47,280 bases of DNA from Myxococcota bacterium (GTDB lineage Bacteria; Myxococcota_A; UBA796; GCA-2862545): assembly GCA_039208735.1 (NCBI GenBank), contig JBCCQY010000058.1, positions 1 through 47,280 of the forward strand. Direction: 5' to 3'. Within the stretch, counting starts at the first letter, position 1, and each line of letters begins with the position of its first letter. This document shows positions 46 through 47,280 of this stretch, in pieces. Both the position numbers and the translations under genes were made by a program. Under the pieces are notes generated by a model. That model did no database searches. It worked only from the letters and a program-made list of their open reading frames with translations, and was not told the DNA's origin.

Positions 46-59
46 GTTGGCACCAAAAG

Positions 60-132
60 AGCGGGAGACGAGATTCGAACTCGCGACCCTCAGCTTGGAA
101 GGCTGATGCTCTACCAACTGAGCTACTCCCGC
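60..132 (-). tRNA. glyT: tRNA-Gly(TCC)
   Basis: Full cloverleaf: acceptor GCGGGAG/CTCCCGC, anticodon loop TTCCAA, T-loop TTCGAAT; no encoded CCA. Confidence 0.96.
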
Positions 133-168
133 AAGGAGTGAAGTGTGGTGCCGTATATCGCAAAAGGA

Positions 169-250
169 TGGGGGGAGCTGGATTTGAACCAACGTAGGCT
201 AAGCCGGCGGGTTTACAGCCCGCTCCCTTTGACCACTCGGGCATCCCCCC
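169..250 (-). tRNA. tyrU: tRNA-Tyr(GTA)
   Basis: GGGGGGATGCCCGAGTGG...GCGGG-CTGTAAA-CCCGC, long variable arm, GTTCAAATCC; no encoded CCA. Confidence 0.96.
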
Positions 251-283
251 AAAGAAGGTGGACTATGGTGTTCGACCACGATG

Positions 284-356
284 AGCTGGCGAAGGGACTT
301 GAACCCGCAACCTGCTGATTACAAATCAGCTGCTCTACCAATTGAGCTACGCCAGC
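284..356 (-). tRNA. thrU: tRNA-Thr(TGT)
   Basis: GCTGGCGTAGCTCAATTGGTAGAGCAGCTGATTTGTAATCAGCAGG...TTCAAGT...CGCCAGCT. The order Thr-Tyr-Gly-Thr matches the conserved tufB-operon tRNA cluster. Confidence 0.96.
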
Positions 357-29292: not shown

Positions 29293-29733
29293 ATGCGACG
29301 CGTCCTGACCCTTCGCGCCCACCTTCTGCCCTGGCCTATTTGGCAAGAACCCATCACTGTCGGATGGCAGGCCGGTAGAGACGGATTCATCGAAGGGGTC
29401 CGCGACGCCGCAGGCGCTGTACTCGAGGGCACGATCGAGGCCGTAGAAGATCGAAACGGCCTCCCCGATTTCCGGGGTCCGCTCGTCCATGGGCGACCCT
29501 GTGAACGCTTCTTGTACGTGGCGTGGCGGACGGTGGCCTCCGAACCGCAACGATTTCGCAGACTAAAGCTGTTTCTTTCACCGGTAGAGCGTTCGACCTG
29601 GGTGCAGCCCGCCATTCCATGGTCAACGATCGAAGTGGGAGGGATCGAAGCGACCGTTCCGGGCGCCGAGCCTGACGGTACCCCCGCTTGTGGCAGCAAG
29701 CCAATCCGCTGGGCACCGATGAAAAGACCTTAA
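29293..29733 (+). CDS. DUF5990-like protein
   Basis: DFRGPLVHGRPCERFLYVAW...FRRLKL and DGTPAC motifs. Confidence 0.75.
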   Translation: MRRVLTLRAHLLPWPIWQEPITVGWQAGRDGFIEGVRDAAGAVLEGTIEAVEDRNGLPDFRGPLVHGRPCERFLYVAWRTVASEPQRFRRLKLFLSPVERSTWVQPAIPWSTIEVGGIEATVPGAEPDGTPACGSKPIRWAPMKRP

Positions 29734-30812
29734 GGAAGGTCCGAATGGACTTCGAGATGGGGAATCGAAAACCCCATTTCGGCCGGTGAAAACCGCTCCA
29801 GCCCAACCGGAATATCGTCGAGCTGACGGCGTAGCGCCGTGACGGCGCCGCGCAGCGCGGCATTTCGGGTCGATGGATCGTGGCCCGCATCGCTCGGGGG
29901 GGCCCAACCGACTTCGTGCGCGTCGAGCCAAGCCACAAGGTCAGCTGCCGCAGCGTCCGACGTCGCCGAGGCCATGGCGGCGAGGACCGCCCCGGCCCGT
30001 CGCGTGAGTTCGGATGCGTAGAGCTGCTCTTTGGTGTGGGCATCCCACACTTCGTAGACCCAGCTGTGAATGCCGGTTCGGCGGAGCACGCCTTTTGCGT
30101 CGCGGCTCATGTTCGCCTCGAGGGTCGGCCACACCTCGTCCCAGCGGAAATCCGCGAGGACCGTCGGAAGTCGACGCGACACCAGTACCCGAAGTCGAGG
30201 GAATGGAACGTCATAAACGCGCAGTTGTTCGCTTTCGCTAACCCCCGAACCTTCCGTCCAAGACGGCCCAGGAAACGCCCAACGATCGAGTTCAGGATTC
30301 TCCTGGATCGCAAGTTTCAAACTTGGATGCAGGCCCACATAGATCAGACGATCCGTCATGCCTGCTTGCAGCGATAGTGCGGTTTGCAATGCCGCGGAAA
30401 GCGGCTCATGCCCAACGTTGAGGCAGGCAACCAGGGGCAGCCGTTCGGGAAGCTGGTCTCGCAATTCTCGAACACGGTCATGAAGAGAGGCATGTACGGC
30501 ACTCGCCTCAACTTCGGACCAGATTTCGTCCAAGGCCTGGCCCTGATGTTCAAAACCGTGTGCGCGAAAACCGTAGTGCGATTCGGGTGGCGTCCCTGGC
30601 GGCTGTAAGGCGGGCAAAGCCCCTGTCAGGTGCTGCAGCTCAGTCCATCGCGGACCGGCCACCATCTCGCGAAGCGCCCGCAACGCGCGCGTGGTTCCCC
30701 ATACTTCGATACCCGCGATCGGCTGTCGTTCTTCGACCGACAACCACCATAACAATCGCATCAAAACGAGCGGGGACTCCCCGAGCACCAGAACGACGTA
30801 CACGCCCTGCAC
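29730..30812 (-). CDS. divergent NE0113/Csx14-type CARF-domain protein with C-terminal winged-HTH-like region
   Basis: Collinear with Cas_NE0113 blocks: LGESPLVL (G-x-SPQVV), IEVWGT (IHVITT), GQALDEIWS (G-x-x-L-x-DIR), RVRELR, ALSLQAGMTDRLIYV (ALSL-x-GR-x-x-DRL-x-HV) and VPFPRLR; GGAG RBS and GTG start. Confidence 0.68.
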   Translation of the reverse strand: MQGVYVVLVLGESPLVLMRLLWWLSVEERQPIAGIEVWGTTRALRALREMVAGPRWTELQHLTGALPALQPPGTPPESHYGFRAHGFEHQGQALDEIWSEVEASAVHASLHDRVRELRDQLPERLPLVACLNVGHEPLSAALQTALSLQAGMTDRLIYVGLHPSLKLAIQENPELDRWAFPGPSWTEGSGVSESEQLRVYDVPFPRLRVLVSRRLPTVLADFRWDEVWPTLEANMSRDAKGVLRRTGIHSWVYEVWDAHTKEQLYASELTRRAGAVLAAMASATSDAAAADLVAWLDAHEVGWAPPSDAGHDPSTRNAALRGAVTALRRQLDDIPVGLERFSPAEMGFSIPHLEVHSDLP

Positions 30813-31088: not shown

Positions 31089-31943
31089 CTAGCCTTTCGT
31101 ATCGATGGGCTCGGTGACGGGAAGGAGCTGAATCGCCAATTGATAGATTCGGTACGGTCCATCCGCCTGCCGATCGTCAGCCATGGTGGCAAGATGCCCC
31201 ACAAGGGTGTTGAGACGCACTTTGAACTCGGGCACCTGGCCTGACGCAATGGCCATGGTCGCCGCAAGGACATGCTGCTCCTCTCCCCGGCGAGGGTCCA
31301 TCTGCCTCAACAATCCGGGGATTGCATCGCGGTGAAAGTGTGCGATCGCCCGTTTGGTGGTCTCGGGTTCCGAACGGAATCGAACCTCTCGAACCTCCAC
31401 TCGTCCGTCGCTCCGCCGTCGAAGGAAATCGAGTTCAAACAGGGTGTTGAGTGCATGCTCGGCCTGCTTGGGCTCGATCGACGGGCAGAGTTTCTTCGCA
31501 ATCCACTCTGGATCGTCACGAAAACCAGGGAGCGATGCAAGTTCACGAATCGCCGGCACATACCAGTGCTCGGCATAGCGAAACACCACGTCGTCGGACT
31601 CCCGCTCCGCCAAGCGCAGTTGCTGGAAGCGACTCCCCGAAACGATGGCTTCAAGCACTTCCACGCGCGTCTCAACATCACGAGCCGTCGAAAAATCGAC
31701 CAAAAGACCGAAATAATTGCGTTCTGCAGGCTTCAGGTTCATCGCCAACGCAAAGGCATCAATCGTGGCAATTCGCGGGCGACGAGAGCCGTTCAAAACG
31801 TTGGAGATGGCCGCCTTTGAACAACCACCGGCGTCCGCGAAGTCTTGGTAGGTGTAGTTTGGCTCTTGCCGTTTGCGTTCCTGGAGCCACTCGCGAAGAA
31901 ACGCACGGTAGTCCAAGTAGTTGAAAATGCTGGGTAAAGGCAT
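31089..31943 (-). CDS. TIGR02147 / DUF4423 family HTH protein
   Basis: SIFNYLDYRAFLREW, XRE-like HTH (FADAGGCSKAAISNVLNGSR), YF-LLV, WYVPAIREL, FH and IYQLAIQLLP. Confidence 0.88.
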   Translation of the reverse strand: MPLPSIFNYLDYRAFLREWLQERKRQEPNYTYQDFADAGGCSKAAISNVLNGSRRPRIATIDAFALAMNLKPAERNYFGLLVDFSTARDVETRVEVLEAIVSGSRFQQLRLAERESDDVVFRYAEHWYVPAIRELASLPGFRDDPEWIAKKLCPSIEPKQAEHALNTLFELDFLRRRSDGRVEVREVRFRSEPETTKRAIAHFHRDAIPGLLRQMDPRRGEEQHVLAATMAIASGQVPEFKVRLNTLVGHLATMADDRQADGPYRIYQLAIQLLPVTEPIDTKG

Positions 31944-38777: not shown

Positions 38778-39998
38778 TCAGGTGCCCTCACCCACCACGG
38801 CGTAGATCGAGCCCCGACCATAGTCGACAACATAGAGATCACCTGCTTCATCGAGTCCGAAAGCCGAGATGAGGACCGGCCACTGCCCCAACGACAGCGC
38901 CTTGACGGACCGCGCCCGATCTGGAACTTCGAGGGCCCACATTCGCCCGGTTACGAAGTCCCCGAACACGTAGCGGCCTCGTAGAGCCTCGGCCCGTCGT
39001 CCGGTGACCACGAACCCCCCGGTGACCGAAAATCCCTCGTCCCGGCCATACTCGAAGATGGGGTCGACCAAGCCCTCGGTGGGGCAGTCGTTCTTGGGCC
39101 GAAAGCAGTGGCCCGCCTCCCGAATTCGCCACCCGAGGTTGTCGCCCGCCTGCACCAGCGAGATCTCTTCCCAGGCGTCTTGACCCACATCGGCCACCAC
39201 GAGTTGGCCCGATGGGGTGAAGCTGTAGCGCCAGGGATTGCGAAGCCCCAACGCATAGATCTCGTCGCGAACGTCCGCATCCTCAACGAAGGGATTGTCC
39301 GCAGGAATGAGGTTTGGCGCATCTGGGTCCAGACGAAGCAGACTCCCGAGTAGCGTCTGCCCATTTTGTCCGTGCTGATGGGGATCGAACCGCGCTCCCC
39401 CGTCACCCAGGCCCACATACAGCATGCCATCCGGACCAAAGGCCAGCTGGCCTGCATTGTGATTCTGATAGGGCTGCTCAACCTCGAGCAGGGTCCGAAC
39501 GGCCTTCGCGGCTCCCGAAACCCCAACGGGGGCTGACCACTCCTCGATCACCGTGACATCGCGTTCCTTCCGCGCGACATAATTCAGATAGAACGTGCCG
39601 CGCTTGCGAAACTCAGGACTCCAAGCCAGGCCGAGCAAGCCCTGTTCTCCGTCCGTTCGCACATCGACGGTAAACCAGGGGGTTCGCTCTCCCGTTTCGA
39701 GGTCGACCACCCAGGCCTGGCCTCCCTTCTCGAGCACAACAGCTCGCGCCCCTTCTCCAGGAATGAACTCGATTCCAAGGGGTTCACGGAACCCCGTTGC
39801 CAGCTCGACCAGTCGCACGGAAAGCGTGCCGCGAGAGGCATCGATCGGATGAAACGTCGCATTCACAAGTCCTTCAGGCCGCTCGTAGATGCGTTCGGGG
39901 TCGCTTAGGCGCTTGACCACGGCACGGCGAATGCCTTGGCACGAACTGGTGATCAGCAGTCCCGCAATGAGTCCAACGCAGGCATGGGCTCGCGTCAT
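38778..39998 (-). CDS. PQQ-dependent sugar dehydrogenase (GSDH family)
   Basis: GEQGLLGLAW-P, NHNAGQLAFGPDGMLY-GLGDG, IPADNPF, GLRNPWR, DVGQ-WEE and SVTGG; GGAGG RBS. Confidence 0.93.
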   Translation of the reverse strand: MTRAHACVGLIAGLLITSSCQGIRRAVVKRLSDPERIYERPEGLVNATFHPIDASRGTLSVRLVELATGFREPLGIEFIPGEGARAVVLEKGGQAWVVDLETGERTPWFTVDVRTDGEQGLLGLAWSPEFRKRGTFYLNYVARKERDVTVIEEWSAPVGVSGAAKAVRTLLEVEQPYQNHNAGQLAFGPDGMLYVGLGDGGARFDPHQHGQNGQTLLGSLLRLDPDAPNLIPADNPFVEDADVRDEIYALGLRNPWRYSFTPSGQLVVADVGQDAWEEISLVQAGDNLGWRIREAGHCFRPKNDCPTEGLVDPIFEYGRDEGFSVTGGFVVTGRRAEALRGRYVFGDFVTGRMWALEVPDRARSVKALSLGQWPVLISAFGLDEAGDLYVVDYGRGSIYAVVGEGT

Positions 39999-40074: not shown

Positions 40075-40257
40075 CCTCTCTGAAGTGTTGCGGCGATGGG
40101 TGCGACTGCTCCTGCGGGAACTGAGGCCCTTCACGAGGTGTGAACACCCGGCTCATGTACGTAGCAAGCCGCGCCTCGCGCATGGACGCGTGGGGCTTGC
40201 GTAGCGATCGCGGGATGCGAGTCGTTATCCGACGTGAATGCCTGCGTTGGAGGGGCC

Positions 40258-42777
40258 TTGAGCGAGCCGCCCGCCTTGTTCATCTCGTACCGCAGGGACG
40301 ATACCCAGGTTGTCGGTCCCCTCGCGGATGCTCTGGAGCGGGACGGCAAAGCCAAGGTCTTCTTCGACCGCGATTTGTCCCCAGGAGCGCCCTTCCCGGC
40401 CCAGCTTCGTGAGCAGGTGGTAAACGCAGATGCCATCCTCGTGCTCATGGGCGCTCGCTGGATGCGTCGTGATGAGCGAGGGCACTCGGCCCTGATGGAC
40501 GATGGAGACTGGGTCCGCCAGGAGCTGGAATTGGGCCACGCCCACCAGATCCCCCTGCTGCCGGTGCTCGTTGACGGGGCGCCCTGGCCCGACCGCGATT
40601 CGCTGCCCACGTCGTTGCGATTCCTCTTGGATCTTCATCGCATCGAGTTCAATTCGCGCGGTCACTTCTCCATGGAGACCACACGCATTTGGGATGCCGT
40701 CGTTCGTGCAGCGGAAGAGCGCCAACGACGCGAGTCCATGGCCCAACGACGGCCGGCTGCCTACCAGGACTTCCTGACCTACATTTCCGAGTACCTGACG
40801 TTCAGCGCCGTGGAACTCGACGAAGATCAGATTCGCATGGGCTTCGTCGAAACGATGTACAGCGCCTCGTACCGTGAAATCGTCGACAAGTGCCTTCCCG
40901 CAGGGCGGATCACCCTCTTGGAGGCCCGCCGCGGCATTGGCAAGACCTTCCTCTTGAAGCGGCTTGCCGCGGAGGCGCGAAGTCGTCACCCAGAGAGCGC
41001 GGCAAACGTGCTGCATGTGTGGCGCCATGCCCCGGCCCCCACGCTCGCCGATGCCGACCTCACCTCTCGCCTGGCCACGCTGCTCATCTGGGGCATCACC
41101 GAGCAGGGAGAGCGCTACAACCCGGCTGAGGTCTTCGGGGGCCATTGGAGATTGTTTCGGTCCCTGGTTCGAATTTACGAAACGTCAGACACGCTTTCGC
41201 TCCAACAGGCCGAAGTCCGTCTGCGACAGACCGTTCCTGAAGAGCAAGGCCGCGATGTCGCGGCCTTCATGTTGGATATGGGCTCCGTCGACTACCAGTG
41301 GACCCAACTTCGCCGACTGTTGAAGACAAATGGAATTCGGCATCTGAACCTATTCATCGACGAGTTCACGGAATCGGTACCTCATGCGCACGCGCACGAT
41401 CGGTTCATGCGGATGCTGAAGGCGCTCAAGACCGAGCTGTCACCTGGGATCGGGTGCACTATCGTCGCCGGAATCTACCCCCGGGTGACCTCACTGCGGG
41501 AATTCCGAGGCAGTCAGGATGGACGGCTGTTGGCGCTCGAGTACCAGGGCGACTGGCAGGGCTGGCACCGAGAGGCCACCACCTTCATCACCAGCCAGTT
41601 TTCCGCCTACTGCCAGGGCAACGACCTTCAGACCCCCACCGAGTCGGAGGTCGTGGCACTGCGCAACCGATTGTTCGGCGGAAAGGCCATCAAACGGCTG
41701 TCCTACCTCAGCAACCGGAGCCCTCGGCAGTACCTCAATCTGCTGCAGGATGCGGTGGCCGGCGCCGACGAGGAAACGTCCGTCGATGTGGCCCGTATCG
41801 AACGTGTCGCCGCCGATTACGCCGACCGCGACTTCCGCGCCATCCCCAATGCGTGCGAACGCTTCGACACCATCGACGTCGACCCACAACTCGCCCAACG
41901 CGCCTTCACGCATGTTCGCGCGTGGACCCAGTACGGCGCCGAGGAGCGGCGGGCTCGGGGGCAGGCGCCGTCGCTCAGCATCGAAGCGGAAACGTCATCG
42001 AACCAAGGAATTCTCTCGGCCTTGGCCATGCTCGAGTACCTCGGACTGCTGCGGGTGACCGGCGACAGCTCGCCGCGCATGACGATCGAACTTAGCCCCA
42101 TGCATGCCGTTCCCACCGTGCTTTCCGATGGAGAGATGGATCAACAAGGCCCCCCCTACCCCGTTGCCGGCACCCTCCTCCACGGCCCGCACCACGTCGC
42201 GGTTCCCACCCCCGCACTCCCCTCCGAAGCACAGTCGCCGCGCGACAAGTCGCTGACCGACTTCCTGCGCAAGCGGCTGAGCGATCGGCACCTCGGATTC
42301 GACGAGGACAAGCTTCAAGATCTGAATCTCAGCAGCTACACGGTGGGTCAGGTGGCCGTGTACTCTCCCGTTCAAGACCGCTTTCGTTCCCGCAAGCAGG
42401 CGCTGGTTCGACACACGACGGGCGCGTTGCTTTCGAACAAGGCCCGCAAGATGATCGAGGCCCAGCTGGCTCGGCATCTGGAAGAACATCAGATCACCAT
42501 CGTTGACGACACCGAGCCCCTCGATGCCGAAGCGCTGCTCGACACCCCGCTCGCCGAGTTGTCTCTCTCGAACGCCGTCGTCTCAAAACTCGAGAAGGCG
42601 GGCCACCTGACCGTCCGCGACCTCGTTGCGTTCTACCCAGAACGAGGTCACTACCAATACAATGGTGGTCCCAAGCTCGAGCGAGTGGGCCTCAAGCCGG
42701 CTCAGCGGAAGGCGGTTGCGGCGCGCATCAAGGAGTTCATCGAAACCTGGAACCTACGCTACACCCCGGCCATGTGA
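40258..42777 (+). CDS. TIR domain - P-loop ATPase - tandem alpha-CTD/HhH-like fusion protein
   Basis: TIR: FISYRRDD, VFFDR, DWVRQELE, LLPVLVDG. Walker A ARRGIGKT, Walker B LNLFIDE, SPRQYL. C-terminal LLDTPLAELSLS...KLEKAGHLTVRDLV. TTG start after GGAGG (alternative GTG at 40234). Confidence 0.85.
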   Translation: MSEPPALFISYRRDDTQVVGPLADALERDGKAKVFFDRDLSPGAPFPAQLREQVVNADAILVLMGARWMRRDERGHSALMDDGDWVRQELELGHAHQIPLLPVLVDGAPWPDRDSLPTSLRFLLDLHRIEFNSRGHFSMETTRIWDAVVRAAEERQRRESMAQRRPAAYQDFLTYISEYLTFSAVELDEDQIRMGFVETMYSASYREIVDKCLPAGRITLLEARRGIGKTFLLKRLAAEARSRHPESAANVLHVWRHAPAPTLADADLTSRLATLLIWGITEQGERYNPAEVFGGHWRLFRSLVRIYETSDTLSLQQAEVRLRQTVPEEQGRDVAAFMLDMGSVDYQWTQLRRLLKTNGIRHLNLFIDEFTESVPHAHAHDRFMRMLKALKTELSPGIGCTIVAGIYPRVTSLREFRGSQDGRLLALEYQGDWQGWHREATTFITSQFSAYCQGNDLQTPTESEVVALRNRLFGGKAIKRLSYLSNRSPRQYLNLLQDAVAGADEETSVDVARIERVAADYADRDFRAIPNACERFDTIDVDPQLAQRAFTHVRAWTQYGAEERRARGQAPSLSIEAETSSNQGILSALAMLEYLGLLRVTGDSSPRMTIELSPMHAVPTVLSDGEMDQQGPPYPVAGTLLHGPHHVAVPTPALPSEAQSPRDKSLTDFLRKRLSDRHLGFDEDKLQDLNLSSYTVGQVAVYSPVQDRFRSRKQALVRHTTGALLSNKARKMIEAQLARHLEEHQITIVDDTEPLDAEALLDTPLAELSLSNAVVSKLEKAGHLTVRDLVAFYPERGHYQYNGGPKLERVGLKPAQRKAVAARIKEFIETWNLRYTPAM

Positions 42778-42787
42778 CCCCCGATCA

Positions 42788-44848
42788 TCATGGGACGACG
42801 GGTGGTGGAACGGCTCCTTCGAGAATCCAGGTCTCCCATACGTCCAGGTCTGCGCTGGACAACGCACCATTGGTCGGCATCTGACTTCCCGCGCCACCGG
42901 CCGCAATCTGGGTCCCCGTGATCTTGCGCCAGATGTAGCTGTTGTCAGGGTCGCCAGGTTCGATCAAATCCATTGACGACAGCTGCCCCGACGGCTGGTT
43001 GACGGTCGATGCCCACACATTGTCGGTGCCCATGAGAAGCCCCCCCGTGCCATTCACGGTGTGACACGCTGCACAGCGCGCGTTCACGACCATTTGGACG
43101 TCGGCCGCGGTGGTCGTTTCGAACCCTACGTCGCTGTCGGGGACGCCATCACAGTCGGTGTCGACACCATTGGCAAAGTCGAAGCGACCGGGATGAACCA
43201 GGCGGTCGGCATCGTCGCAATCGGTATCGTCGTCGACAAATCCCGAGGGCTGCAGGCACTGCATGGTGACGACCGCCAGGTCACCAAACCCATCGTCATC
43301 GGCATCCTGGTACCACTCGGTCAGGGGGTTGCGGTCGACATCGGCGTCGTCACAATCGTCGTCGTTGTCGACCGTGTTCAGGGGAGCCACGCAAGCCACC
43401 GCGATCCGGTTGGCCGGATCGCCGTACCCATCGAGGTCGGTGTCGGCGTACCATGCCGAGGCGGCCCCGATTTCAGCCTCGGTGTCGTCACAATCGTCGG
43501 CGTTGTCGACGGTGGACGGCGGCTGCAGACAGGACTGCGTCACCGCGATCGGGTCACCAAGTCCGTCCATATCGGTGTCGGCGTACCACATCGTGTCGGG
43601 GTTGAGTTGGGGATTCAGATCGTCGCAATCGGTCGCATTGGCCACAGTTCCGGCCGGCGCCGTGCAGGCTTGCACTGGCGACCCCAAACCGTCCCCAAAC
43701 CCGTCGCTGTCGCCGTCCGGGTACCACAGCTCCCCCAACGTCACGCTGGGGTTTGCGTCATCGCAATCTCGGTCATCCATCACCGTGTTCGCAGGCTGCA
43801 GACATGACGTCGTGGGCGAATTGGCGTCGCCAAAGCCATCCTGATCCCCGTCGGCCCACCAGACCGTGTTGGGGTTGATTTCGGGCTCGGTGTCGTCGCA
43901 ATCGTCATCATTGGTGACCGTTCCCGCCGGCATGACGCACACCTCGACCTCGGTGCCCGGGGCGCCGAAGCCATCCTGGTCGGTGTCGTCCCAGAACGTG
44001 CCAAAGTCGATGGTGGCTGGATCGGCATCGTCGGCAAGCATGTCGCAGTTGTTGTCGACACCGTCACACACCTCATCGGCGGTAGGGAAGATCTCGTCGT
44101 CGCTGTCGTTGCAGTCGCCCGACGTTGCCACGTGGTCTTTGGGCGCGAGACACGCCACGACGGCGACCCCATCCCCAAACCCATCGTGGTCCCCGTCGAA
44201 GAACCAATCCTGTGGGGCCGCGATCGCAGCATCGATGTCGTTGCAGTCCTCGCACACCGGAGATCCGTCGCCGTCGCCATCGTCTTGCGGCGAAATGCCG
44301 TCGCAGTTTCGGTCGTCGAGATCGGCACACGTTTCGACGGCATCCGGTCGAACGTCGTCGCGAGTATCGTCACAATCCGTGGCGTCCTCGACCGAGAACG
44401 GAGGAGCAACACAGGCCACCACTGGCGCAAGCACGTCGCCAAATCCATCCTGGTCCGTATCGGCGTAAAACGTGAGGGCGTCGACGGGGGGGCCGTCTGG
44501 GTCAGCATCATCGATGCCCATGTCGCAGTCGTCGTCGACCTCGTTGCATCGTTCGGGAGCGCCGGGAAAAATGGTGTCGTCAGCATCGTTGCAGTCACCG
44601 TCCACGTCCGAAGTGGCCGGACCTCGCAAGTCCACGCAGTCTTCGATTTGTGGACCCGTGCCAAAGCCATCGCGGTCGTCGTCGACGTACCACCGATCCG
44701 TTTCGCACGGGGTGCCCGTGTCGGTATCGTCAGGGCCCGTATCGGCGGGCGGAGTCGACATTCCGGTGTCGGAGTCCGGAGGACTAGCGGGAGCCGGCTC
44801 TTCTCCCGTACACCCAACCCAGACGAAACCAGCAAAGAACAAGCGCAT
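42788..44848 (-). CDS. lipoprotein with about 10 MopE-type Cys/Asp repeats and a C-terminal c-type heme domain
   Basis: GGAGG RBS; leader ending VGC; repeats W(Y)-x-D-x-D-x-DGFG...C...DC(D/N)D; C-terminal CAACH...PGDPDNSY...QMP...WILEGA. Confidence 0.88.
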   Translation of the reverse strand: MRLFFAGFVWVGCTGEEPAPASPPDSDTGMSTPPADTGPDDTDTGTPCETDRWYVDDDRDGFGTGPQIEDCVDLRGPATSDVDGDCNDADDTIFPGAPERCNEVDDDCDMGIDDADPDGPPVDALTFYADTDQDGFGDVLAPVVACVAPPFSVEDATDCDDTRDDVRPDAVETCADLDDRNCDGISPQDDGDGDGSPVCEDCNDIDAAIAAPQDWFFDGDHDGFGDGVAVVACLAPKDHVATSGDCNDSDDEIFPTADEVCDGVDNNCDMLADDADPATIDFGTFWDDTDQDGFGAPGTEVEVCVMPAGTVTNDDDCDDTEPEINPNTVWWADGDQDGFGDANSPTTSCLQPANTVMDDRDCDDANPSVTLGELWYPDGDSDGFGDGLGSPVQACTAPAGTVANATDCDDLNPQLNPDTMWYADTDMDGLGDPIAVTQSCLQPPSTVDNADDCDDTEAEIGAASAWYADTDLDGYGDPANRIAVACVAPLNTVDNDDDCDDADVDRNPLTEWYQDADDDGFGDLAVVTMQCLQPSGFVDDDTDCDDADRLVHPGRFDFANGVDTDCDGVPDSDVGFETTTAADVQMVVNARCAACHTVNGTGGLLMGTDNVWASTVNQPSGQLSSMDLIEPGDPDNSYIWRKITGTQIAAGGAGSQMPTNGALSSADLDVWETWILEGAVPPPVVP

Positions 44849-44944
44849 CGTGCCTCCAGGCGATGAATACCCTCCATTTAGGCCCGATTCGTCATCGGCG
44901 GTCATCCGAATAGGATGGGAACTGGTCTATGGAGCACCCTTCGA

Positions 44945-46398: not shown

Positions 46399-47280
46399 TC
46401 ACATCGGTGAACGTTCACGGGCCCGAGCTTCGGCAAGTTCGCGGACGCGGTCGATCAGCGTTTGTTGGTCGGCGTCGGAACACGCCTCCCAGCTCTCACG
46501 AAACAGGTCTGCCAGATCGATGGCCACATCTAGAGCCACCTCATCAACGATGGCTGGTTGCGCGGTGCCCACCTTAGAGCGAGCCGAGGCGACGCGTGCT
46601 TCGGTGACCAGCCGCGGCAGCCAGGCCAACAGTACAGAAAGGTCCAGGTGGCCGGGATTCCAGTTTTCGGCCCCCGCGAAGCGCACATCGTCAAAGTCCG
46701 GCAGCTTTCGCTTGTAGACGGGGCGGGTGCCCACGGGCATGCGGGCGTCCGGCTTGAGAACGAGGCCCTCCGCTAGATTCTCGGGCTGGCCGAGCAACCC
46801 GTACATCGCCGGAACCCGAGAGGGGAAGGCCACAGGCAATCTGGCCAATACGCCGCGCGGCCCTCGTTCAATGCAGGGAGGAACCAACAAATTCAGCGCC
46901 CGAAGTTCATGATCGGCAAGCCACTCCCCGCGGTCGTCGTGGTCGCTCGCCACAATGGCGTCGAACACTAGCCAATGCAGGTCCGGAGCGTAGTCAATGC
47001 CGGTCTGAACGGGCTGCAACCCAGGCAGGGAGGCCCCCCCAAACCGGCCTCCGTGCAACTCACCGTAAAGCCAGAGCTGCCGTGCCCCGACCGCAGCGCC
47101 CGCCTCTGTCGCCGATGCTTCAATCTCGGACCGGATCGAGCGCCAGCCAAAGAACCCGTCGTCGTCCTCGAGCCACGCCTTGCGTTTGCCAAAGCGAACC
47201 GTGCCACGCGCCACGGCGACCACAAGCTGCGCGCCGTGGACCTTCTCGGTGGCCACCCAAGGGCCCCCGACCGTGGCTCC
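46399..47280 (-). CDS. Rnl2-family ATP-dependent RNA ligase, 5' end outside window
   Basis: Frame is open to the window edge (GATVGGPWVATEKVHG); nucleotidyltransferase motifs EKVHG, LYGELHGG, VQ-GIDY...VFD, AEGLVLKP and YKRK. Confidence 0.87.
   Translation of the reverse strand, partial: GATVGGPWVATEKVHGAQLVVAVARGTVRFGKRKAWLEDDDGFFGWRSIRSEIEASATEAGAAVGARQLWLYGELHGGRFGGASLPGLQPVQTGIDYAPDLHWLVFDAIVASDHDDRGEWLADHELRALNLLVPPCIERGPRGVLARLPVAFPSRVPAMYGLLGQPENLAEGLVLKPDARMPVGTRPVYKRKLPDFDDVRFAGAENWNPGHLDLSVLLAWLPRLVTEARVASARSKVGTAQPAIVDEVALDVAIDLADLFRESWEACSDADQQTLIDRVRELAEARARERSPM

What the first reader, a model, noticed from the sequence alone, without database searches (positions are those of the whole stretch)
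40258..42777. Single-gene NLR-like candidate: catalytic TIR + P-loop ATPase + C-terminal RNAP alpha-CTD/HhH-like sensor
Seen in sequence: an N-terminal TIR with the acidic catalytic position intact (DWVRQE, Glu codon 40522-40524). Next come a P-loop (ARRGIGKT, 40924-40947), Walker B (LNLFIDE, about 41344-41364), an SPRQYL helical-domain motif and a wHTH-like segment (LAMLEYLGLL). A Pro-rich linker then leads to an HhH-type tail. Established: bacterial TIR domains with this Glu cleave NAD+ or make signals upon oligomerisation (Thoeris, SPARTA, TIR-SAVED, TIR-STING), and effector-NTPase-sensor layouts (Avs, NACHT) are antiphage receptors whose sensors are normally TPR, WD40 or LRR repeats. Inference: the sensor slot here holds a transcription-machinery or DNA-binding fold instead. 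The protein may be triggered by a phage factor that targets RNA polymerase, or by aberrant DNA, and then deplete NAD+. I do not know a characterised system with this architecture. The gene stands alone between unrelated genes transcribed the other way, consistent with a self-contained module.
Basis: partly seen in the sequence, partly recalled or inferred. Interest (0 to 1): 0.85.

Follow-up and report, generated by a model that had tools for sequence, protein, structure and literature searches.

The report
TIR enzyme fused to ORC-type ATPase
This rare, solitary bacterial gene joins an NAD-splitting immune enzyme to a switch ATPase of the DNA-replication-initiator type with a small helical tail; it is probably a one-gene anti-virus suicide device built from known parts in an undescribed order, but its trigger is untested.

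Summary
The TIR is SARM1-like and its Glu aligns with SARM1's catalytic Glu. The ATPase is not NACHT/Avs-like but ORC/Cdc6-like (PF24389; predicted-structure TM 0.69-0.72). The last ~75 aa have an alpha-CTD/HhH/SAM-type fold, probably the second of two tandem units. Only three long homologues were found; one lacks the TIR but keeps the tail. The tail travels with the ATPase: other ORC-CDC6-like clusters carry alpha-CTD too, and this scan noted such TIR-less ATPases before on other DNA. It lacks the alpha-CTD Arg and resembles the host's own alpha-CTD no more than shuffles do, so an RNA-polymerase decoy is unlikely. No named system matches, no defence island surrounds it, and 0 of 400 phylum genomes matched. 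TIR-Orc/CDC6 fusions are mentioned in print in another gene context (PMC10853773). Best reading: a one-gene abortive-infection module whose ATPase oligomerises on foreign nucleic acid and activates the TIR. New variant of a known kind; function inferred.

The parts
40258..42777 (+). Gene for the 839-aa TIR / ORC-Cdc6-like ATPase / wHTH / tandem-tail protein (alternative GTG start at 40234)
   Evidence: GC3 0.77 against 0.65-0.78 for 11 other window genes
40249..40255 (+). Shine-Dalgarno-like GGAGGGG before the TTG start
   Evidence: read from sequence; not tested further
40267..40707 (+). TIR domain (TIR_2), structurally closest to SARM1/TIR-1
   Evidence: Pfam E 2e-15; phmmer to SARM1 E 5e-5; VIA Z 18.1, rmsd 2.2, 140 aligned to 8p2m, plant TIRs Z about 13
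40522..40524 (+). Predicted catalytic Glu of the TIR (W-V-R-x-E)
   Evidence: aligned to the E of SARM1 WVHKE; kept in all 3 TIR-bearing homologues; its role in SARM1 (E642) is recalled
40783..41547 (+). ORC/Cdc6-like (PF24389 / Sll1717-like) AAA+ core
   Evidence: Atlas TM 0.69-0.72 to ORC-CDC6-like clusters; NF047389 E 2.5e-4, below cut-off; P0005 passes the PF24389 cut-off; hhalign P 95%
40924..40947 (+). Walker A, ARRGIGKT (RRGxGK invariant in 4 of 4)
41344..41364 (+). Walker B, LNLFIDE (DE in 3 of 4, DD in 1)
41524..41526 (+). Candidate arginine finger (DGR before strand 5): Arg in the 3 TIR-bearing proteins, Glu in the TIR-less one
   Evidence: assignment inferred from the ORC/Cdc6 hallmark described in PMC12839542
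41548..41847 (+). Helical lid with invariant P-R (SPRQY), aligning to GVPRDA of related ATPases; sensor-2-like Arg
41848..42147 (+). Winged-helix-like domain (helix, then beta-hairpin wing after LAMLEYLGLL)
   Evidence: secondary structure of AF2 model, pLDDT 57-70; covered by the Atlas structural matches
42148..42237 (+). Pro-rich disordered linker
   Evidence: pLDDT below 50; variable length in homologues
42238..42492 (+). Tail unit 1: probable degenerate copy of unit 2
   Evidence: hhalign unit 1 vs unit 2 E 8.8e-4, P 23%, 54 columns; reversed control E 0.2; no match to alpha-CTD alone; pairwise tests not significant
42493..42747 (+). Tail unit 2: alpha-CTD / HhH / SAM-type five-helix fold with a beta-hairpin insert
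   Evidence: pLDDT 77-91; VIA Z 6.8 alpha-CTD 1z3e, 6.5 AF1548, 6.4 RAD51C N-domain, 5.8 SAM; hhalign to alpha-CTD set P 86%, E 5e-6 over 34 columns
42574..42576 (+). Ala at the position of the conserved alpha-CTD Arg (LSVR)
   Evidence: alignment; K, S, S in the homologues
38778..39998 (-). Left neighbour (not part of the system): glucose/sorbosone dehydrogenase family, followed by a cytochrome c gene
   Evidence: pair syntenic in G002 without the TIR gene
42788..44905 (-). Right neighbour (not part of the system): MopE-repeat protein with cytochrome c-like end, convergent, 10 bp away

Best explanation
A self-contained abortive-infection protein. [quoted passage not shown] INFERRED: at rest the protein is a nucleotide-bound monomer and the TIR is inactive. 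On infection the wHTH and the tethered tail bind foreign or abnormal nucleic acid, as Orc1/Cdc6 proteins bind DNA. Nucleotide exchange lets the ATPases oligomerise, this stacks the TIRs, and NAD+ is hydrolysed, so the cell stops and the phage or plasmid is not propagated. The ATPase-wHTH-tail block is the conserved sensor/switch; the TIR is a bolt-on effector that one homologue lacks.
For: TIR fold and Glu. ATPase is the best-conserved part, 55/42/28% identity, against wHTH 29/28/18%, as expected for a switch with a faster-evolving recognition end. ORC-CDC6-like assignment. Effector variation: TIR in 3 of 4 long homologues. Very patchy: non-self matches in 40 relatives are TIR-only; 0 of 400 phylum genomes with the TIR-free profile; the orthologous neighbour pair in a same-genus genome has another gene at this place. 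Related ATPases sit in CARF6-type operons with PRTase or phosphoesterase genes, and one carries a SAP domain. In print: Orc/CDC6 ATPases fused to TIR are proposed anti-invader proteins (PMC10853773, passages), ORC-CDC6 is proposed to sense invader DNA (bioRxiv 10.64898/2026.10.19.760177, passages), and BREX PglW has an alpha-CTD-like domain beside wHTHs (PMC12839542 section 23).
Against: No experiment. No PADLOC hit at E<=1e-5 among the immediate neighbours; 2 of 14 window genes tested hit only generic AAA or methyltransferase models. GC and GC3 match the genome, so no sign of recent transfer, and 95-97% identical pieces of the gene and its flanks occur in three other runs, i.e. it is stably kept. 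The tail lacks the alpha-CTD Arg/Asn and a canonical HhH hairpin, and unit 2 is not clearly basic in this protein (11 K+R, 13 D+E), so DNA binding by the tail is not shown. Only 10 of 109 genes flanking the related solitary family hit PADLOC, about 6 plausibly defence, with no background control. In E. coli 12 of 32 TIR candidates defended (PMC11350192 section 6). The host has many other TIR genes. The full-length model is weak (pLDDT 65, pTM 0.34).
Confidence: 0.45

Rival explanations
1. Not defence: a regulated NAD+-consuming or signalling switch used in stress, development or DNA-damage responses of a large-genome myxobacterium.
For: No defence neighbours; ameliorated composition; kept in related strains; many TIR genes in this genome and genus; STAND clades switch often between defence and non-defence roles (PMC13581612 section 5).
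Against: Extreme rarity and loss in relatives is unlike a regulator with a fixed pathway; no conserved partner gene; TIR gain or loss on the same ATPase.
Confidence: 0.2
2. Defence, but the tail is a SAM-like self-association scaffold (as the tandem SAMs of SARM1) that pre-organises the oligomer; the trigger is read by the ATPase/wHTH or by the TIR itself.
For: SAM domains score Z 5.2-5.8, within about 1 of alpha-CTD; probable tandem pair; TIR closest to SARM1/TIR-1; DNA-contact residues absent.
Against: Sequence profile points to alpha-CTD, not SAM; SARM1's own SAMs score only Z 4.5; an AAA+ module can oligomerise by itself (established for the clade).
Confidence: 0.13
3. Integrated decoy: the alpha-CTD-like tail baits a phage protein that binds or modifies host RNA polymerase alpha, and binding releases the ATPase.
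For: Best structural and profile match of the tail is alpha-CTD, with the PDB profile match running back over an acidic linker like alpha's; C-terminal, flexibly tethered position.
Against: No more similar to the host's alpha-CTD than shuffles (score 26 against 26.0 +/- 3.7); the conserved Arg, recalled as the DNA contact and the T4 ModA/Alt target, is absent; the tail is 36-42% identical among TIR-bearing homologues and is found on TIR-less ATPases.
Confidence: 0.12
4. The TIR makes a signal molecule (Thoeris-like) for an effector encoded elsewhere instead of depleting NAD+.
For: Weak hits to ThsB and Thoeris type III ThcB4 models, far below cut-off.
Against: No effector gene adjacent; those hits reflect the general TIR fold; ThsB structures score Z 11-12 against 16-18 for SARM1.
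Confidence: 0.1

Closest known systems
Pfam PF24389 ORC-CDC6-like ATPases, including clusters with a C-terminal RNA_pol_A_CTD
   Same: Same fold over about 400-420 aligned residues (TM 0.69-0.72); PF03118 in 23% of one 53-member and 12% of one 128-member cluster; homologue P0005 passes the family cut-off.
   Different: Those are 520-590 aa without a TIR; strong PF24389 members sit in CARF6-type operons or alone with no effector. This protein itself scores 16 bits against a cut-off of 27.
TIR-fused Orc/CDC6 ATPases of Rakesh, Aravind and Krishnan 2024 (PMC10853773; passages seen)
   Same: TIR joined to an active Orc/CDC6-family ATPase, proposed anti-invader role.
   Different: Described in operons with a second, Walker-B-defective Orc/CDC6 and a KAP NTPase; here the gene is alone and has the helical tail. 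The supplement listing those architectures was not read.
Avs / bacterial NLR-related STAND receptors, plant TIR-NLRs (RPP1)
   Same: Effector-NTPase-wHTH-tail order; Foldseek's top hit is RPP1 (E 5e-6, but rmsd 26).
   Different: No TPR, WD40 or LRR repeats; tail about 170 aa, below the 400-aa sensors surveyed in PMC13581612 (section 5); NACHT and nSTAND profiles below cut-off.
SARM1 / TIR-1 NAD+ hydrolases
   Same: Closest TIR structure (Z 16-18), Glu aligned; a possible tandem of SAM-like folds.
   Different: No ARM repeats; TIR is N-terminal; an ATPase lies between.
BREX type 2 PglW (PMC12839542 section 23)
   Same: An alpha-CTD-like domain combined with wHTHs and an ORC/Cdc6-like domain in a defence protein.
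   Different: PglW has nuclease and kinase effectors, an inactive ATPase, and works in a large operon.

Membership tests
TIR NADases (TIR_2 / SARM1-like) | TIR fold above the Pfam cut-off | tested here: met
   57.7 bits against 28; VIA Z 18.1, rmsd 2.2, 140 aligned
TIR NADases (TIR_2 / SARM1-like) | Catalytic Glu in helix C | tested here: met
   aligned to SARM1 WVHKE; kept in 3 of 3 TIR-bearing homologues
TIR NADases (TIR_2 / SARM1-like) | NAD+ cleavage on oligomerisation | not testable with these tools
   needs biochemistry
ORC-CDC6-like ATPases (PF24389 / Sll1717-like) | Score above the family cut-off | tested here: inconclusive
   this protein 16.1 bits against 27; homologue P0005 28.2; NF047389 20-50 bits against 75 in all four
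ORC-CDC6-like ATPases (PF24389 / Sll1717-like) | AAA+ core, helical lid and wHTH of the same fold | tested here: met
   Atlas TM 0.69-0.72 over about 400-420 residues, predicted models on both sides; hhalign P 95%, E 2e-8, but P 12% once Walker A is removed
ORC-CDC6-like ATPases (PF24389 / Sll1717-like) | Intact Walker A and B, Arg at base of strand 5, sensor-2 Arg | tested here: met
   alignment A1; first Walker A residue is Ala; Arg-finger assignment inferred
Avs / bacterial NLR (NACHT, AP-ATPase, nSTAND) receptors | N-terminal effector + central STAND-type NTPase + wHTH | tested here: met
   in the broad sense that STANDs belong to the Orc-Cdc6 subclade
Avs / bacterial NLR (NACHT, AP-ATPase, nSTAND) receptors | C-terminal repeat sensor (TPR, WD40, LRR) | tested here: not met
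   no repeat family in Pfam; tail is about 170 aa with an alpha-CTD-type fold
Avs / bacterial NLR (NACHT, AP-ATPase, nSTAND) receptors | NTPase matches a named Avs/NACHT model | tested here: not met
   PADLOC and NCBIfam give only weak partial hits; NACHT E 0.12
RNA polymerase alpha-CTD (PF03118) | Five-helix HhH-type fold | tested here: met
   Z 6.8, rmsd 2.3, 63 aligned to 1z3e, tied with AF1548 and RAD51C N-domain; profile E 8e-4
RNA polymerase alpha-CTD (PF03118) | Conserved Arg/Asn of helix 1 and G-K/R-K-S hairpin; Pfam cut-off | tested here: not met
   A/K/S/S and S/D/K/Q at those places; 11.6-15.8 bits against 23.8 where scored
Thoeris (ThsB/ThcB + effector) | Adjacent SIR2, Macro or caspase effector gene | tested here: not met
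   neighbours are GSDH, cytochrome c, MopE-repeat and histidine kinase genes
CARF6-type / KAP-linked Orc/CDC6 operons | Co-oriented CARF, PRTase, phosphoesterase or KAP NTPase partner | tested here: not met
   both neighbours are on the other strand and unrelated; homologues' loci could not be fetched
Any anti-phage defence system | Protection against phage that depends on the catalytic residues | not testable with these tools
   needs an infection assay

The most novel reading that the evidence does not exclude
A minimal bacterial TIR immune receptor whose sensor is a tandem of RNA-polymerase alpha-CTD-derived domains acting as an integrated decoy for phage transcription factors (or as a reader of phage promoter DNA), coupled through an initiator-type ATPase ring to a SARM1-like NADase. 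No such receptor turned up in the searches made.
Probability: 0.12. Interest if true: 0.85.

Novelty: new variant of a known kind. Interest (0 to 1): 0.52.

Why it matters
ORC/Cdc6-type ATPases recur in predicted immune loci, but what switches them on is largely untested because most have no readout of their own. Here one polypeptide carries the switch, the putative sensor and an easily assayed NADase, so the question 'do these ATPases sense DNA or protein, and what does the alpha-CTD-like tail do' becomes a one-gene experiment. A recent STAND survey clustered only sensors of 400 aa or more, so a 170-aa tail would fall outside that analysis. The family is tiny (four known members), which limits its ecological weight.

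Tried and rejected
Searches for homologous loci with the TIR-free alignment A2 found none: genome contigs (191 pattern matches, 0 confirmed), metagenome contigs (599, 0), viral contigs (445, 0); tblastn of P0005 or the window protein on plasmids and phages gave no match; the tail alone gave one E 3 hit. So the neighbourhoods of P0003-P0005 are unknown. Word-based protein searches returned only P0002/P0003 or P0005 itself and missed known members, so they are lossy; the HMMER list shows only the best 150, so ATPase-only or tail-only relatives under about 78 bits are hidden. Atlas feature search with the tail gave no usable hit. I tried to collect ORC-CDC6 + alpha-CTD proteins to align them directly: alpha-CTD searches of plasmids, phages and 401 genomes and 15 fetched alpha-CTD-bearing stretches plus two plasmid loci gave no such fusion, so that link rests on the Atlas cluster statistics. 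HMMER with the deep related profile reached only Walker A of our family. VIA runs on the full model were filled by the TIR, so the ATPase was not compared with solved structures on its own. No promoter-like site, no flanking repeats suggesting a mobile element; tRNAs lie 40 kb away. No RNA holder listed. No credible joint skipping the gene in four runs (contigs show presence, not absence). No complex prediction was obtained. Rejected: RecG kinship (NCBIfam E 0.002, tail only), DS-41 (E 0.04), MADS mad8 (partial ATPase hit), Avs5. Paper searches with no relevant hit: Sll1717+ATPase (0), ORC+Cdc6+PRTase+TIR+effector+conflict (0), PRTase-CE (retrons only), (0); listings; seven supplements of PMC13581612 hold none of ORC-CDC6, PF24389, PF03118, RNA_pol_A_CTD, Sll1717, CDC6. 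Two papers asked for by DOI were not held.
Full report
Observation. The window is one whole contig of a 9.4-Mb, 64% GC assembly (92.7% complete, 6.15% contamination); a same-phylum record is titled Myxococcota. An unbroken ORF runs from 40258 (TTG; or GTG 40234) to 42777 on +, and the 839-aa form is on public record as P0002. Both neighbours are on the minus strand: a GSDH-family gene and a MopE-repeat gene. GC and GC3 (0.63, 0.77) match the other window genes.

TIR. Pfam TIR_2 E 2e-15. The only significant sequence matches among solved structures are SARM1/TIR-1, with DWVRQE on DWVHKE. In structure the domain scores Z 16-18 to SARM1/TIR-1 and 11-13 to plant, Thoeris and SPARTA TIRs. That the Glu is SARM1's catalytic E642 is recalled, consistent with entry titles.

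ATPase. Pfam, PADLOC and NCBIfam give only sub-threshold hits, the longest to the Sll1717 family. The Atlas places residues 165-640 with ORC-CDC6-like clusters by features (0.96) and by predicted structure (TM 0.69-0.72). The TIR-less homologue passes the PF24389 cut-off. A deep alignment of a related solitary family (84 rows from 83 loci) aligns with our four-member profile at P 95%, E 2e-8 over 318 columns; the reversed control gives P 0.2%, and removing Walker A drops it to P 12%, so the kinship is real but distant. RRGxGK, the Walker B Asp and the lid P-R are invariant; a candidate Arg finger is present in the three TIR-bearing proteins. A wHTH follows.

Tail. A single-sequence model is confident only for the last 75 or so residues. 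These match RNA polymerase alpha-CTD (Z 6.8, rmsd 2.3, 63 aligned), tied with AF1548 and the RAD51C N-domain, with SAM domains about 1 lower; the family profile finds alpha subunits in the PDB at E 8e-4. The preceding 85 residues align in register with this unit at E 8.8e-4, P 23% (reversed control E 0.2), though pairwise tests are not significant: a probable, unproven tandem. The alpha-CTD Arg and Asn of helix 1 are replaced in all four proteins, the G-K-K-S hairpin is absent, and this protein's tail scores against the host's own alpha-CTD exactly like shuffles; P0005 does score above all 300 shuffles.

Family. A search of 1.84 billion representatives lists three non-self proteins that align beyond the TIR among the best 150: P0003 (43%), P0004 (39%) and P0005 (28%, no TIR, tail present). 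Each is a singleton cluster. In 40 relatives only TIR-region matches were found (3 of 40 genomes); the TIR-free profile matched 0 of 400 other genomes of the phylum. In same-genus G002 the GSDH-cytochrome c pair is kept (62% and 56%) but a different gene lies upstream; synteny is loose there, so this is weak evidence of insertion. Three other runs hold 95-97% identical pieces of the gene and its flanks. The loci of the homologues could not be retrieved.

The tail belongs to the ATPase. PF03118 is on 23% of one and 12% of another ORC-CDC6-like cluster, and a third cluster is automatically named after alpha-CTD. Two earlier notes of this scan describe TIR-less ORC-type ATPases ending in such a domain in two-gene cassettes on other DNA; I could confirm the combination only through the Atlas, since my attempts to fetch examples failed. 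The related solitary family has no such tail.

Context of relatives. Strong PF24389 members in the phylum lie in operons with CARF-repeat, PRTase or phosphoesterase genes (PADLOC CARF6). For the solitary family, 10 of 109 flanking ORFs from 61 loci hit PADLOC at E<=1e-10, about six plausibly defence (two methyltransferases, ThsB, three PDC/Mokosh-like); 20 of 83 loci were left out (18 near-duplicate actinomycetes, the query, one fragment), two had no neighbour called, long ORFs were cut to 600 aa, one ORF that was a piece of the ATPase was dropped, and no background was run. In the window, 2 of 14 genes tested hit only generic models: no defence island.

Mechanism. The most economical reading is a switch-and-effector protein: the wHTH and tail bind invader nucleic acid, the ATPase oligomerises, the TIRs stack and destroy NAD+ (0.45). 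Domain identities and residues are shown; binding, oligomerisation, NADase activity and protection are inferred. Summed over the defence variants I put defence at about 0.8 and non-defence signalling at 0.2. The decoy reading gets 0.12 because a bait should look like the host's target and this does not.

Comparison with print. PMC10853773 (passages) notes Orc/CDC6 ATPases fused to TIR in operons with a second ATPase and a KAP NTPase; its supplement was not read and may list this architecture. PMC12839542 (passages and section 23) describes an alpha-CTD-like domain in PglW. bioRxiv 10.64898/2026.10.19.760177 (passages; supplements closed) proposes ORC-CDC6 as an invader-DNA sensor. PMC13581612 (passages, section 5, supplement search) surveys STAND sensors of 400 aa or more, mostly TPR, and names none of these families. 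PMC11350192 (passages, section 6), PMC13092281, PMC13586616, PMC13712802 and 10.1101/2025.09.30.679545 (passages only) describe no such protein in what I saw. The single-gene TIR + ORC/Cdc6 + wHTH + alpha-CTD-like arrangement was not found in searches; subscription journals are largely outside the library.

Verdict. Observation confirmed; interpretation partly supported. It works like an NLR-style effector-switch receptor but fails the Avs/NLR membership test (no repeat sensor, no named model). New variant of a known kind; interest 0.52.

Noticed in passing
L069-L150 (e.g. L048 6478-8073 -): A widespread, solitary ~520-aa ORC/Cdc6-like ATPase-wHTH gene, 40-64% identical across many phyla (206 confirmed stretches), with no effector and changing neighbours, often housekeeping genes; no PADLOC model. 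Possibly an undescribed one-gene system.
   Followed up: partly
L083 5485-7437 +: A member of that family with an N-terminal SAP domain (E 2.5e-5) directly followed by a PNP-type PDC-M60C-like gene.
   Followed up: partly
L058 3336-5741 -, L059 3054-6026 -: Single ORFs of 800-990 aa that join pieces of RNA polymerase beta-prime (and beta in L059) with an alpha-CTD: condensed polymerase-like proteins in two genomes of the phylum.
   Followed up: no
L010, L011, L040-L042: CARF6-type operons: ORC-CDC6-like ATPase between a PRTase or phosphoesterase gene and a CARF-repeat gene; on plasmids also with HAD and PfkB genes.
   Followed up: partly
L063 3999-6854 +, L054 1595-4033 -: Proteins with repeated alpha-CTD-like domains plus sigma-70 region 4, showing that tandem alpha-CTD-like units occur outside RNA polymerase.
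   Followed up: no
window 29730-30812 -: 360-aa gene with no Pfam or PADLOC hit downstream of an HTH-DUF4423 gene (31089-31943); its N-terminus looks Rossmann/CARF-like by eye (recalled, untested).
   Followed up: partly
window 46399-47280 -: RNA ligase 2 family gene running off the contig end.
   Followed up: no
window 59-356 -: tRNA-Gly, -Tyr, -Thr cluster at the contig start.
   Followed up: no
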